Shown in pieces: positions 4,135 to 47,757 of a stretch of 48,422 nucleotides of DNA. Position 1 is the first letter of the stretch; each line of letters starts with the position of its first letter. Origin of the DNA: Escherichia phage ETEP102. The DNA lies in sequence record OR979723.1. One strand, 5' to 3'. Under the pieces are notes generated by a model, which had not been told where the DNA came from, ran no database searches, and saw only the letters and a list, made by a program, of their open reading frames with translations. The translations under genes and the position numbers were made by a program.

Positions 4135-4278
4135 ATGCCGCATCAGCAGAGTAACAACAAGTCATGGACCAAGGCCGCAAGGGCTAAGCGTCGCGGTGAA
4201 CTTAAAGATTTCTTTATCAGTGCAGGCCACACACGTAAAGTGGCATTACAATTAGCCAAACAGAGCGAGAAACAATAA
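4135..4278 (+). CDS. small basic protein (47 aa)
   Basis: ATG with GAAAGGA upstream; MPHQQSNNKSWTKAARAKRRGELKDFF...; stop overlaps next start (TAATG). Confidence 0.4.
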   Translation: MPHQQSNNKSWTKAARAKRRGELKDFFISAGHTRKVALQLAKQSEKQ

Positions 4279-4895
4279 TGAATCAGCTTTACACCATGAT
4301 TAAGCATCACCTTCAAACGGTAGCGGTAAACAAGAAAGTTTACATCTTTGATTACGATGGTACTCTGTCGGACAGAACGCACCGCCTGCACAAGCTACCG
4401 ACAAAGGATTTGCGCCTCACTGAGTCATGGCTTGAATTTAACTCATTGAGCAAGTTCGATCGGCCATTCCAGGAAACGATTGACGTAATGAATAGCCTGT
4501 TCGCTTCCGGAGCTTTCATCATCGTGCTCACTGGTCGATCTGATGCGGTTGTTGAGGAATCAACGCAATGGCTGCATGATGCTGGCGCTAAATATAACGT
4601 TCTGGTCATGCGCCGGGCTGATGACAACCGAAAGGATACCATCATCAAGGAAGAGTTTTTACGATACATTGGCTTGCACCGCATCACCGCAGCGTGGGAT
4701 GATAGCGTTAACGTTATTAAGCACTTCCGAAGCCTCGGAATCACTACCTATCATGTGTGCGACTATGGCGATAACGTGCACTCCGCCCTTAAGTCTCACG
4801 GCGTAGAAAAAGTTTGCGAGCACGAATTTAGCGAGCCGCTACCTCCGCATGGTGTTCGCCAGTGCAAAAAATGCAATCTCGTAAGCGGTAAATAA
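4278..4895 (+). CDS. HAD-family polynucleotide 3'-phosphatase (T4 Pnk phosphatase-like)
   Basis: DxDGT motif (IFDYDGTL), LTGRSD, RRADDNRKDTIIKEEF, AWDDSV: pattern of the T4 Pnk C-terminal phosphatase domain as recalled from memory. Confidence 0.65.
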   Translation: MNQLYTMIKHHLQTVAVNKKVYIFDYDGTLSDRTHRLHKLPTKDLRLTESWLEFNSLSKFDRPFQETIDVMNSLFASGAFIIVLTGRSDAVVEESTQWLHDAGAKYNVLVMRRADDNRKDTIIKEEFLRYIGLHRITAAWDDSVNVIKHFRSLGITTYHVCDYGDNVHSALKSHGVEKVCEHEFSEPLPPHGVRQCKKCNLVSGK

Positions 4896-4944: not shown

Positions 4945-5562
4945 ATGTCAAAGATTATCATTCTAAACGGTCCTGCTGGCGTAGGTAAAGACACGATCGG
5001 CAATGCACTGGCAGCAGATTACAACTGCATCCCTACCAGCTTCAAACGTCCGATGTTTGAAATTGCAGCATCCATCCTTGGGGCCAGGGATTTTTCAAAG
5101 TTCATCACAGCATACGACGACCGCGATCAGAAAGAGCAGCCTCAGGGCTTTCTCGGTGGCAAGACCTGCCGTGAGTTCATGATCTGGATTAGCGAAACAG
5201 TGGTCAAGCCGCTTTTTGGCAATCAGCAGTTCGGCAAATTGATGAGCGAACATATCCGTCTGTGTGATGAAGGATTCTGTTTTGTTTGCACTGATGGCGG
5301 GTTCCCTGACGAAGTGATCCAACTCCTTGAAGATGGTCACGATGTCACCCTGGTTCGCCTATTCATGGATGGCAAGACTTTCGATGGCGATAGACGTGAT
5401 TACATTCGTCTTAAGGAATTGTACTACCCTTATTACAAGAAATATAACGAGCATGATGTGCATCTGGTTAATGGTGATATTGAAGGCGGTGTGCTGTCGG
5501 TTGTTAGAGCTTGCGGTATCCGTCCTGCAATCGACGAGTGGGCCGACGATATTCCCTGGTAA
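4945..5562 (+). CDS. P-loop kinase (candidate polynucleotide 5'-kinase partner)
   Basis: Walker A GPAGVGKDT near N-terminus; adjacent to phosphatase gene. Confidence 0.55.
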   Translation: MSKIIILNGPAGVGKDTIGNALAADYNCIPTSFKRPMFEIAASILGARDFSKFITAYDDRDQKEQPQGFLGGKTCREFMIWISETVVKPLFGNQQFGKLMSEHIRLCDEGFCFVCTDGGFPDEVIQLLEDGHDVTLVRLFMDGKTFDGDRRDYIRLKELYYPYYKKYNEHDVHLVNGDIEGGVLSVVRACGIRPAIDEWADDIPW

Positions 5563-5580
5563 ATAGCACGAATTGCTAAG
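5563..5580 (+). promoter_or_regulatory. ATAGCACGAATTGCTAAG motif copy
   Basis: Immediately after TAA stop; 22 nt to TATAGT (5601-5606); ATG at 5636. Confidence 0.5.
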
Positions 5581-31134: not shown

Positions 31135-31581
31135 ATGCCACACGTAATTACTGGTCAGATCCGTAAAGCACCATTCACAATGGAAGGTAGCAACAATAAT
31201 GGGCGATGGAAAATGTATGCCGTAGAGCTTTCTGAACGAATGAAGATTCGAAATCAGAATGGCGAGGATGAGACAGTTTATAGCAACTACCGCGCTACAT
31301 TCTTCGCAAAAGAAAACGTTATGCAGTGGTATGATGAATCGTTCCAGGAAGGAAAGGTTGTTTCAATTTATTCCGATACCCTTCATCTATCGTCTAGACA
31401 GGGTAATGACGGGACTGTTTACGTCACCGCTGAAATGATCCGTCCTCAGTTGCAATTCAGTCAGCGCGAGCCAGCGCAACAGCATAGTCAAGGTCAGAAG
31501 CGACAGCAGCCCCAGCAGCAACAACGTCAGCAGCAGCAACCAAATCAGTCAATGCAATTCGACGACGACATTCCATTCTAA
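31135..31581 (+). CDS. ssb: single-stranded DNA-binding protein
   Basis: Gln/Pro-rich linker and C-terminal QFDDDIPF tail identical in type to the bacterial SSB tip; ATG 31135 with AAGGA upstream. Confidence 0.85.
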   Translation: MPHVITGQIRKAPFTMEGSNNNGRWKMYAVELSERMKIRNQNGEDETVYSNYRATFFAKENVMQWYDESFQEGKVVSIYSDTLHLSSRQGNDGTVYVTAEMIRPQLQFSQREPAQQHSQGQKRQQPQQQQRQQQQPNQSMQFDDDIPF

Positions 31582-46137: not shown

Positions 46138-46158
46138 TTAGCAATTAGTGCTATTTTA
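46138..46158 (-). promoter_or_regulatory. ATAGCACTAATTGCTAAA motif copy (minus orientation)
   Basis: Minus strand: follows TAA of methyltransferase gene; 22 nt to TATATT; leader CATCGAAACGAAAC; ATG 46074. Confidence 0.45.
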
Positions 46159-47232: not shown

Positions 47233-47448
47233 TTAAAACGGTATGCCGTCATCAAATTTTAATCGATAGTCGAAGTCATCCCCGATTCCATCGACTGACT
47301 GGTTGCTCTCGCTTTCCAGATCCATATCCATAATTCCGAGAGCGTCATCAAGTTCTATACATCCATAAGCTACCTTGAGCGCCCACTCTTCATTAAGTCC
47401 GGCTTCAAGTGCCGCGCGGTGGCGGCTCCAGAAATTATCTTGATTCAC
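47233..47448 (-). CDS. small acidic protein with SSB C-terminal tail mimic (KFDDGIPF)
   Basis: 71 aa, GTG start with GGAG 6 nt upstream; acidic C-terminal half ending FDDGIPF, the same motif that ends the phage SSB (FDDDIPF). Confidence 0.5.
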   Translation of the reverse strand: MNQDNFWSRHRAALEAGLNEEWALKVAYGCIELDDALGIMDMDLESESNQSVDGIGDDFDYRLKFDDGIPF

Positions 47449-47450
47449 CG

Positions 47451-47675
47451 TTAGCTCCAGGAGTTGATATAAAGTGAGTTGTCGTTTAACAGATTGATCA
47501 TCTCGGCACGGGTGAGGCTACGGATTATTTGGCCTGGATGAGTGCCAAAAACGTAGCGATCGAACTCACGGCGCGTAATGGTGATCTGACTAACGCCTGC
47601 TGAGCGGTCAAGTTTGATGATTGCGCGGCCTTTGGCTTCGATGTGTGCTACTACGTTCTGAACTTTAACTGACAT
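47451..47675 (-). CDS. hypothetical protein (74 aa)
   Basis: ORF with GAGGAAG RBS downstream of motif/leader module. Confidence 0.4.
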   Translation of the reverse strand: MSVKVQNVVAHIEAKGRAIIKLDRSAGVSQITITRREFDRYVFGTHPGQIIRSLTRAEMINLLNDNSLYINSWS

Positions 47676-47738
47676 TTTTACTTCCTCTTGTGTACTTCGT
47701 TTCGATGAAATGATTATGCCTCAATCCGTGAGGCTTAG

Positions 47739-47757
47739 TTTAGCAATTCGTGCTATT
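47739..47757 (-). promoter_or_regulatory. ATAGCACGAATTGCTAAAC motif copy (minus orientation)
   Basis: Minus strand: follows TAA stop of gene 47757-48188; hairpin GCCTCA/TGAGGC; about 22 nt to CATAAT; leader TTCATCGAAACGAAG; ATG 47675. Confidence 0.5.

What the first reader, a model, noticed from the sequence alone, without database searches (positions are those of the whole stretch)
47233..47448. Small acidic protein ending in the SSB C-terminal tip motif (KFDDGIPF): candidate SSB-tail mimic
The 71-aa minus-strand ORF ends ...DDFDYRLKFDDGIPF. The phage SSB at 31135-31581 ends ...QSMQFDDDIPF, the canonical acidic tip that, from established knowledge, bacterial SSB uses to recruit partner proteins. 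This ORF has the tip but no OB-fold-sized body. It sits in the right-end early operon downstream of the ATAGCAC motif promoter. Inference: a decoy that competes for SSB-tip binding partners (host takeover or anti-defence).
Basis: partly seen in the sequence, partly recalled or inferred. Interest (0 to 1): 0.8.

Follow-up and report, generated by a model that had tools for sequence, protein, structure and literature searches.

The report
Small phage protein with SSB-like tail
A conserved 71-residue protein of T1-like phages has no DNA-binding body but ends in nearly the same tail that the bacterial single-strand DNA-binding protein uses to recruit its partners, so it probably docks onto one of those partners, although no binding has been tested.

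Summary
ORF 47233-47448 (minus strand, GTG start, good Shine-Dalgarno) encodes a 71-aa acidic protein ending KFDDGIPF. The phage SSB ends QFDDDIPF.

This is not chance. About 0.04 IPF endings are expected among the window's 319 ORFs. 77 of 81 short family members end in hydrophobic-Pro-Phe/Trp. Across eight congeneric phages the last 15 codons carry 64 synonymous and 0 non-synonymous differences. The tail was not copied from the SSB gene, because the codons differ.

The protein is a three-helix module followed by a disordered tail. It belongs to PHROG 9085 (function unknown) and is an accessory gene in roughly half of Drexlerviridae.

A third protein, a dNMP-kinase-like enzyme at 4945-5562, carries a clade-specific disordered tail ending DEWADDIPW.

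The tail therefore looks like a shared docking label, not necessarily a decoy. The strongly conserved helical module and the phage's dependence on the host polymerase argue against a bulk decoy. They favour a selective two-contact competitor or an adaptor.

Tip variants (IPW, IPFW, FPF, a Cys4 knuckle) are a caveat. No binding evidence exists and I found no literature on this family. I judge it a new variant of a known kind, of moderate to high interest.

The parts
47233..47448 (-). 71-aa ORF (GTG start, TAA stop at 47233-47235). Member of PHROG 9085. Acidic: 17 D+E against 5 K+R, pI about 4.05.
47314..47448 (-). Codons 1-45: conserved three-helix module (helices 4-15, 20-28, 33-44), ending in the family-wide ALGxMDMD motif.
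   Evidence: AlphaFold2 pLDDT 72-75; invariant columns F6 R9 R11 A13 G17 L18 N19 W22 V26 Y28 G29 A36 L37 G38 M40 E45; pN/pS 0.19
47236..47313 (-). Codons 46-71: disordered acidic linker plus tail, ESESNQSVDGIGDDFDYRLKFDDGIPF.
   Evidence: Block mean pLDDT 43-53, with residues 45-59 below 50; pN/pS 0.05 for the linker and 0 for the last 15 codons
47236..47256 (-). Codons 65-71: FDDGIPF, the SSB-tip-like C-terminal motif.
   Evidence: 6 of 7 residues identical to the phage SSB tail FDDDIPF. 77 of 81 short family members end in a hydrophobic residue, Pro, then Phe or Trp.
47455..47458 (-). Shine-Dalgarno GGAG, 6 nt upstream of the GTG. The stop of the upstream ORF (47451-47453) lies between them, an arrangement consistent with translational coupling.
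47451..47675 (-). Upstream 74-aa ORF (PHROG 4344, unknown function). Same transcription unit; also adjacent to the target's ortholog in T1, N5822 and EF3-1.
47713..47756 (-). ATAGCAC-gaa-TTGCTAA cassette with an internal hairpin and a CATAAT -10-like hexamer, upstream of the 74-aa and 71-aa ORFs. Promoter-like, function unproven.
   Evidence: the same repeat is described in TLS (PMC11447400)
31135..31581 (+). Phage SSB (148 aa) with a Gln-rich linker and the canonical tip ...QFDDDIPF. This is the model that the 71-aa tail resembles.
   Evidence: The tail codons differ from the target's at 5 of 6 synonymous third positions.
4945..5562 (+). 205-aa P-loop dNMP-kinase-like protein with an appended tail ...RPAIDEWADDIPW (tail codons 5521-5559). 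This is the second non-SSB carrier of the tail in this phage.
   Evidence: phrog_139; fold ends at helix 179-190; residues 199-205 have pLDDT below 50; best full-length match is T4 dNMP kinase 1DEK

Best explanation
The ORF is a real accessory gene of T1-like (Drexlerviridae) phages encoding a two-part protein. The first part is a small conserved three-helix module. The second is a disordered acidic tail whose last residues (FDDGIPF-COOH) reproduce the C-terminal tip of bacterial and phage SSB.

Shown: the gene is real; the tail is under stronger purifying selection than the rest of the protein; the hydrophobic-Pro-aromatic C-terminus is kept across the family; the tail is not a DNA copy of the SSB gene.

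Inferred: the tail inserts its terminal aromatic residue and carboxylate into the kind of pocket that recognises the SSB tip on a genome-maintenance protein. That protein could be a host one such as exonuclease I, RecQ, PriA, RecG, the chi subunit or DnaG, or a phage one such as Erf. The helical module makes a second contact.

The protein would then act as a selective two-point competitor or modulator of one or a few SSB partners, uncoupling them from SSB-coated DNA. It would not be a bulk decoy for the whole SSB interactome.
For: Sequence: KFDDGIPF against the phage SSB's QFDDDIPF; homolog P0037 ends in the exact DDDIPF.

Chance: about 0.04 IPF endings expected among 319 ORFs.

Selection: the last 15 codons show 64 synonymous and 0 non-synonymous differences in 8 congeneric phages, against pN/pS 0.19 for the module.

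Family: 77 of 81 short members keep the tip, with Pro at -1 in 76 of 77, even though the region before it is completely remodelled (acidic type against CxC...CxxC type).

Convergence: the tail codons differ from the SSB's at 5 of 6 synonymous third positions.

Architecture: folded module, disordered linker, then tip, laid out as in SSB.

Second surface: invariant R9, R11, W22, Y28 and ALGxMD. The module occurs without the tip in PHROGs 4823, 3786 and 15368.

Context: the gene always lies a few genes upstream of the DUF3987 replicative helicase. T1-like phages use host replication enzymes (PMC11447400).

Known rules of tip recognition: a hydrophobic pocket, a basic residue for the alpha-carboxylate and a basic ridge for the Asp residues (PMC3159472). 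Phage annealing proteins also bind the tip (PMC6393309).
Against: There are no binding, structural or genetic data, and I could not run any complex prediction.

The AlphaFold2 model of the module has only moderate confidence (pLDDT about 72-75), and it has no fold or profile match in the PDB.

Position -3 is Gly, not Asp.

Orthologs end in DDYIPW (T1), CIPFW (Webervirus, Hafnia phage) and CFPF (Tempevirinae). Some have no acidic residues next to the tip (P0081 ...SAYIPF, P0062 ...FMGIPF). An extra Trp after Phe should disturb canonical recognition of the carboxylate. In contrast, the phage SSB keeps the canonical tail in all five reference genomes (DDDIPF in four, EEDIPF in Rogue1).

A monomer with one tip must compete with tetrameric SSB.

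The kinase tail suggests recruitment rather than inhibition.
Confidence: 0.42

Rival explanations
1. Address label or adaptor. The acidic hydrophobic-Pro-Phe/Trp tail is a docking tag that this phage lineage attaches to several proteins (SSB, the dNMP-kinase-like enzyme, the 71-aa protein) to bring them to a common hub at the replication or recombination site. The hub would be a host SSB-tip-binding protein such as chi or DnaG, or the phage helicase, primase or Erf. The 71-aa protein would then be an adaptor that delivers whatever its helical module binds, not an inhibitor.
For: The kinase tail ...DEWADDIPW is conserved in 84 orthologs, with Pro and Trp invariant. It is absent from homologs at or below 53% identity, which end at the core fold. 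It is predicted to be a disordered appendage. The same IPW ending occurs on the T1 ortholog of the 71-aa protein. The helical module is conserved as an independent unit. A kinase gains nothing from being a decoy. From established knowledge, T7 gp2.5 and gp4 share acidic Phe-terminated tails that dock on the polymerase, and T4 dNTP-synthesis enzymes associate with gp32.
Against: No hub has been identified. The kinase tail and the small protein do not always co-occur: T1, IMGroot, tonijn and Pocis76 have the small protein but untailed kinases. No cargo for the module is known. The gene is accessory, detected in 428 of about 900 helicase-bearing records, which is unusual for a core replisome adaptor.
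Confidence: 0.3
2. Bulk decoy. The protein is produced in excess and saturates SSB-tip pockets of many host proteins, shutting down host repair, recombination or defence pathways that depend on SSB.
For: The tip is nearly identical to SSB's. The protein is small, acidic and lies in a putative early region. Published SSB-tip mimetic inhibitors are designed against SSB-partner interfaces such as ExoI and RecO (PMC10143822, abstract).
Against: The strong conservation of the helical module is unnecessary for a pure decoy. The phage depends on host replication enzymes and keeps a canonical tip on its own SSB, so general blockade would be self-harming. Tip peptides bind with only nM to 10 uM affinities (PMC6393309) and SSB is an abundant tetramer. 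The tip drifts in orthologs while the SSB's tip does not.
Confidence: 0.12
3. The tip is unrelated to the SSB network. The Ile-Pro-Phe ending would be a family-specific motif that binds a dedicated phage or host partner by another mode, or originally packed against the C-terminal Cys4 zinc knuckle. Its likeness to SSB in Nouzillyvirus would be coincidental convergence on an acidic tail.
For: 29 of 77 tipped members have CxC...CxxC directly followed by IPF, with few acidic residues. IPFW, FPF, EPF and ISF variants exist. The only universal feature is hydrophobic-Pro-aromatic.
Against: The motif survives complete loss of the cysteines in several lineages (T1 type, Nouzillyvirus type, P0062, P0065, P0077), so it is not merely part of a knuckle. 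In the window's lineage 6 of 7 residues match the SSB tip, including the aromatic at -6. From established knowledge I know of no other receptor class in E. coli for an acidic ...IPF-COOH ending.
Confidence: 0.16

Closest known systems
C-terminal tip of bacterial SSB (E. coli ...MDFDDDIPF) and its partner-binding pockets (ExoI, RecQ, PriA, chi, DnaG, RecO, RecG and others)
   Same: Same terminal motif (aromatic at -6, two Asp, Ile-Pro-Phe with a free carboxylate) at the end of a disordered acidic segment. The recognition rules are documented in PMC3159472.
   Different: No OB fold and no evidence of DNA binding or tetramerisation. It has 71 aa with a three-helix module instead. Gly is at -3. 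Orthologs vary the tip (IPW, IPFW, FPF) whereas SSBs do not.
Phage T7 gp2.5 (SSB) and gp4 (helicase-primase), with acidic C-terminal tails ending in Phe that dock on T7 DNA polymerase (established knowledge; gp2.5 tail discussed in PMC10359462, listed)
   Same: Several proteins of one phage share an SSB-like acidic tail with a terminal aromatic residue, used as a docking element. Here the carriers are SSB, the kinase-like protein and the 71-aa protein.
   Different: A different tail sequence. T7 docks its tails on its own polymerase, whereas T1-like phages have no polymerase. The receptor here is unknown.
Bas52_0087, a phage SSB-like protein with two OB folds and an FDDDIPF tip that triggers the DRT10 defence system together with host SbcB (bioRxiv 10.64898/2026.04.29.721553)
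   Same: A phage protein other than the standard SSB that carries the tip and is proposed to interfere with host exonuclease I.
   Different: Bas52_0087 is a large OB-fold protein, that is, an SSB relative. The 71-aa protein has no OB fold and is unrelated in sequence.
Lambda Red-beta C-terminal domain and lambda Orf (PMC6393309)
   Same: Small three-helix phage modules that take part in the SSB-tip network.
   Different: They bind the tip; they do not carry one. I detected no sequence or fold similarity to the module here.
Synthetic SSB-tip mimetics (peptides and small molecules) used as inhibitors of SSB-partner interactions (PMC10143822, PMC5872125; abstracts)
   Same: The same principle as the decoy reading: a free tip analogue competes with SSB for partner pockets.
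   Different: Man-made. I found no natural protein equivalent in the literature.

Membership tests
OB-fold single-strand DNA-binding proteins (SSB, Pfam PF00436 type) | OB-fold DNA-binding domain of about 100 residues or more | tested here: not met
   71 aa in total. AlphaFold2 predicts three helices and no strands. No Pfam hit. No PDB profile or fold match.
OB-fold single-strand DNA-binding proteins (SSB, Pfam PF00436 type) | Disordered linker followed by an acidic C-terminal tip ending Ile-Pro-Phe | tested here: met
   Residues 45-59 have pLDDT below 50 and the remaining tail averages 43-53. The protein ends FDDGIPF.
PHROG 9085 / 9323 (Drexlerviridae small proteins of unknown function) | Full-length profile match | tested here: met
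   phrog_9085 at E 1.6e-35 over residues 1-71. phrog_9323 at E 7.5e-23 over residues 1-48 only, the Cys-type relatives.
Carriers of an SSB-tip-like C-terminal docking motif (functional class) | Terminal aromatic residue with a free carboxylate, Pro at -1, hydrophobic at -2, acidic residues at -3 to -5 | tested here: met
   F(0) P(-1) I(-2) G(-3) D(-4) D(-5) F(-6), so 2 of the 3 acidic positions are filled.
Carriers of an SSB-tip-like C-terminal docking motif (functional class) | Motif maintained by selection | tested here: met
   0 non-synonymous against 64 synonymous differences in the last 15 codons. Tip retained in 77 of 81 short homologs.
Carriers of an SSB-tip-like C-terminal docking motif (functional class) | Physical binding to an SSB-tip pocket, competitive with SSB | not testable with these tools
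   No complex prediction or binding assay was available.
DNA-mimic anti-restriction or anti-RecBCD proteins (Ocr, ArdA, gp5.9) | Rigid scaffold displaying rows of carboxylates that imitate the DNA backbone; sequence or fold relationship to known mimics | tested here: not met
   No Pfam, PHROG or PDB relationship. Acidity (pI 4.05) is concentrated in the disordered tail, not on a rigid surface. Mimicry itself is not testable here.
DNA cytosine methyltransferase (the label given to this ORF in some GenBank records) | Methyltransferase catalytic domain | tested here: not met
   The labelled CDSs are the same 69-79 aa proteins and are not fused to the neighbouring methylase. No Pfam domain.

The most novel reading that the evidence does not exclude
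T1-like phages may encode the first natural protein antagonist of the SSB interactome. It would be a 71-residue bivalent inhibitor that plugs the SSB-tip pocket of a specific host genome-maintenance or defence-linked enzyme, for example exonuclease I, RecQ, RecG or PriA, while its helical module supplies specificity. The same lineage would reuse the tail as an address label to tether a dNMP kinase to the replication machinery. Together this would be a phage-encoded network of short linear motifs built on the host SSB code.
Probability: 0.25. Interest if true: 0.8.

Novelty: new variant of a known kind. Interest (0 to 1): 0.6.

Why it matters
[quoted passage not shown] If a phage displays that signal on a non-SSB protein, it would show how viruses rewire or block this hub. 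It would also point to which partner matters most during infection and provide a natural, evolvable template for inhibitors. The tail on the nucleotide kinase would be sequence-level evidence for physical coupling of nucleotide supply to replication in a phage that borrows the host polymerase. Both ideas are cheap to test with peptides, tail deletions and pull-downs.

Tried and rejected
- **Pfam scan of the 71-aa protein:** only sub-threshold noise (DUF6491 at E 0.05).
- **PDB searches:** the profile search and the Foldseek search of the model found nothing significant, so the module's fold gives no functional lead.
- **Family-wide profile search of 1.84 billion representatives:** 38 hits, all small phage proteins or phage proteins of unknown function. 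Two long hits, P0051 and P0080, are repeat or low-complexity artefacts.
- **Tail copied from the SSB gene by recombination:** rejected, because the codons differ at 5 of 6 synonymous third positions.
- **A downstream ATG as the real start:** rejected on N-terminal conservation, the Shine-Dalgarno sequence, and GTG starts in all eight orthologs.
- **Fusion with, or function as, the neighbouring cytosine methylase:** rejected. The 'methylase' labels are mis-annotations of the same short CDS, and T1 has the gene without an adjacent methylase.
- **DNA-mimic idea:** no support.
- **Literature searches (8 of 10 used)** for a natural SSB-tip decoy, or for this family, found nothing directly relevant.
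- **Timing of expression:** I found no transcript data for T1-like phages.
- **Complex prediction** with candidate receptors was not possible with the tools available.

Full report
**What is there.** The window is a T1-like siphovirus of the family Drexlerviridae, genus Nouzillyvirus. Its closest relatives are CJ19 (92.8% identity over the region) and ESCO41. On the minus strand, 47233..47448 encodes a 71-aa protein ending ...DDFDYRLKFDDGIPF. The start is GTG, preceded by GGAG at a 6-nt distance. The stop codon of the upstream 74-aa ORF lies 2 nt before the start, an arrangement consistent with translational coupling. The phage SSB at 31135-31581 ends ...QSMQFDDDIPF and matches the PHROG for single-strand DNA-binding proteins.

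**More than chance.** I scanned all 319 ORFs of at least 40 aa in the window. Only three end in a hydrophobic residue followed by Pro and Phe/Trp, whereas 0.04 IPF endings are expected from composition. The gene is annotated as a 216-nt CDS in each of the seven related records I fetched. Among the eight orthologs (window plus these seven), pN/pS is 0.19 for the N-terminal 45 codons and 0.05 for the linker. It is 0 for the last 15 codons, which carry 64 synonymous and no non-synonymous differences over 28 pairs. The tail is thus the most constrained part of the protein. The tail codons differ from those of the SSB gene at 5 of 6 synonymous third positions (ttt/ttc, gat/gac, ata/att, ccg/cca, ttt/ttc). 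The likeness is therefore maintained at the protein level and is not a recent DNA copy.

**The family.**
- The protein matches PHROG 9085 over its full length (E 1.6e-35) and PHROG 9323 over residues 1-48. Both have unknown function, and there is no Pfam domain.
- tblastn finds it in 428 phage records, essentially all Drexlerviridae. The core DUF3987 helicase is found in about 900 records. Rogue1 lacks the small protein by homology search. It is therefore a widespread accessory gene.
- A profile search of 1.84 billion representative proteins found only 38 relatives.
- Alignments show a conserved N-terminal module with invariant F6, R9, R11, G17, L18, N19, W22, V26, Y28, G29 and ALGxM. This is followed by a freely remodelled middle and an almost invariant C-terminus.
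- Of 81 short members, 77 end in hydrophobic-Pro-aromatic, and Pro at -1 occurs in 76 of those 77. The four exceptions are truncated fragments or oddities.
- There are two tail architectures. The acidic type includes Nouzillyvirus LKFDDGIPF, one homolog with the exact DDDIPF, and T1 ...DVDDYIPW. The Cys type has CxC...CxxC, probably a zinc knuckle, placed directly or nearly directly before IPF.
- Variants include IPW, IPFW (Webervirus, Hafnia phage), FPF (Tempevirinae), LPF and VPF.
- In contrast, the phage SSB keeps the canonical tail (DDDIPF in four, EEDIPF in Rogue1) in all five reference genomes I scanned completely.

**Structure.** AlphaFold2 with the family alignment gives three helices (4-15, 20-28, 33-44; pLDDT about 72-75) and a low-confidence, unstructured tail. 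This is the SSB layout (folded domain, disordered linker, tip) with a helical module in place of the OB fold. Foldseek and profile searches of the PDB found nothing. The same helical module occurs inside longer phage proteins of unknown function (PHROGs 4823, 3786, 15368) that lack the tip. The module is therefore an independent functional unit and the tip is an add-on.

**An unexpected third carrier.** The ORF scan also flagged 4945-5562 (plus strand, 205 aa), which ends ...RPAIDEWADDIPW. It has a Walker A motif and matches PHROG 139, deoxynucleoside monophosphate kinase. Its model is confident (pLDDT 88), and its best full-length structural match is T4 dNMP kinase 1DEK. Among 120 listed homologs, 84 unique sequences carry the tail, with consensus D-E-W-A-D-D-I-P-W and invariant Pro and Trp. 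This includes orthologs of only 54-57% identity. Homologs at or below 53% identity end at the last helix of the fold. The tail is predicted to be a disordered appendage. The kinases of T1, IMGroot, tonijn and Pocis76 lack it. So this lineage has attached an acidic Ile-Pro-aromatic tail to at least three different proteins.

**Interpretation.** From the literature, SSB-tip recognition uses a hydrophobic pocket for the terminal Phe, a basic residue for its carboxylate and a basic ridge for the Asp residues (PMC3159472). Affinities range from about 0.1 uM (ExoI) to about 10 uM (Red-beta), and phage annealing proteins also bind the tip (PMC6393309). T1-like phages have no DNA polymerase and rely on host enzymes (PMC11447400), which explains why their SSB keeps a host-type tip.

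Given these facts, the tail of the 71-aa protein most likely docks in an SSB-tip pocket.
- the helical module is strongly conserved;
- a general blockade would harm the phage's own replication;
- a single tip has modest affinity compared with tetrameric SSB;
- the same kind of tail sits on an enzyme that has no reason to be a decoy.

I therefore favour a selective two-contact competitor or modulator of one or a few SSB partners (0.42). A recruitment adaptor or address label comes second (0.30). A motif unrelated to the SSB network (0.16) and a bulk decoy (0.12) are less likely. The tip variants IPW, IPFW and FPF and the non-acidic Cys-type tails are the main evidence against the SSB link. The survival of the motif after loss of the cysteines, in several lineages, is the main evidence that it is a binding motif in its own right.

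**Context.** The gene always lies one to five genes upstream of the DUF3987 helicase in the same leftward gene block, often directly before a Dcm-like methyltransferase. Upstream, at 47713-47756, lies a cassette of ATAGCAC-N3-TTGCTAA, a hairpin, and then CATAAT. The core heptamer occurs 16 times in the window against 6 expected, in intergenic positions co-oriented with the genes. The same 21-nt repeat is described in phage TLS with unknown function. Promoter function and early timing are plausible but not shown.

**Novelty.** Eight literature searches found no description of this family, nor of any natural non-SSB protein acting through an SSB-like tip. The nearest item is a 2026 preprint on a large phage SSB-like protein with two OB folds and an FDDDIPF tip, linked to host exonuclease I and the DRT10 defence system. 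The closest mechanistic analogue for a shared tail is T7 gp2.5 and gp4 (established knowledge). I rate this a new variant of a known kind. The finding is solid at the sequence level and mechanistically open, and it is easy to test.

Noticed in passing
window 4945-5562 (+): A dNMP-kinase-like P-loop protein carries a clade-specific, disordered acidic tail ending DEWADDIPW. The tail is conserved in 84 orthologs and absent from more distant homologs and from the kinases of T1, IMGroot, tonijn and Pocis76. It suggests tethering of nucleotide supply to a replication hub.
   Followed up: yes
window, 16 sites, e.g. 5563-5569 (+), 46148-46154 (-), 47750-47756 (-): ATAGCAC is the core of a longer cassette: ATAGCAC-N3-TTG(C/T)TAA, then about 22 nt often containing a hairpin, then a TATAGT-like hexamer. 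It lies in intergenic positions, co-oriented with the genes, with 16 copies against 6 expected. The same repeat is reported in phage TLS with unknown function (PMC11447400).
   Followed up: partly
L016 1183-1422 (Klebsiella phage PWKp17), L017 1201-1410 (Escherichia phage EF3-1): Orthologs of the 71-aa protein are labelled 'putative cytosine DNA methylase' in several GenBank records. These are 69-79 aa CDSs without any methylase domain, so this is a propagated mis-annotation.
   Followed up: yes
proteins P0067, P0071, P0079, P0083, P0085, P0086: The helical module, with its ALGDMDxDxE motif, also occurs inside 160-310 aa phage proteins (PHROGs 4823, 3786, 15368) that lack the Ile-Pro-Phe ending. 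Two of them carry a C-terminal CPAC...CPAC zinc-ribbon-like segment.
   Followed up: partly
L002 2483-2722, L008 45828-46091, P0060, P0064: A subclade (Klebsiella Webervirus, Hafnia phage) ends in ...CxECIPFW, with an extra Trp after the Phe. This should not fit canonical recognition of the terminal carboxylate and remains unexplained.
   Followed up: no
window 47451-47675 (-): The 74-aa ORF (PHROG 4344, unknown function) is adjacent to the 71-aa ORF, with its stop codon 2 nt before the GTG. A homolog precedes the target's ortholog in T1, N5822 and EF3-1, so it may be a functional partner.
   Followed up: no
window 31135-31581 (+): The Gln-rich linker plus tip of the phage SSB also matches the C-terminal ends of PHROGs 6599, 2544 and 4477 (unknown function, 245-393 aa). 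Other unannotated phage protein families therefore end in an SSB-like tail.
   Followed up: no
window 4278-4895 (+): A HAD-type PNKP phosphatase-domain protein (PF25109, PHROG 415 polynucleotide kinase) lies immediately upstream of the tailed kinase.
   Followed up: no
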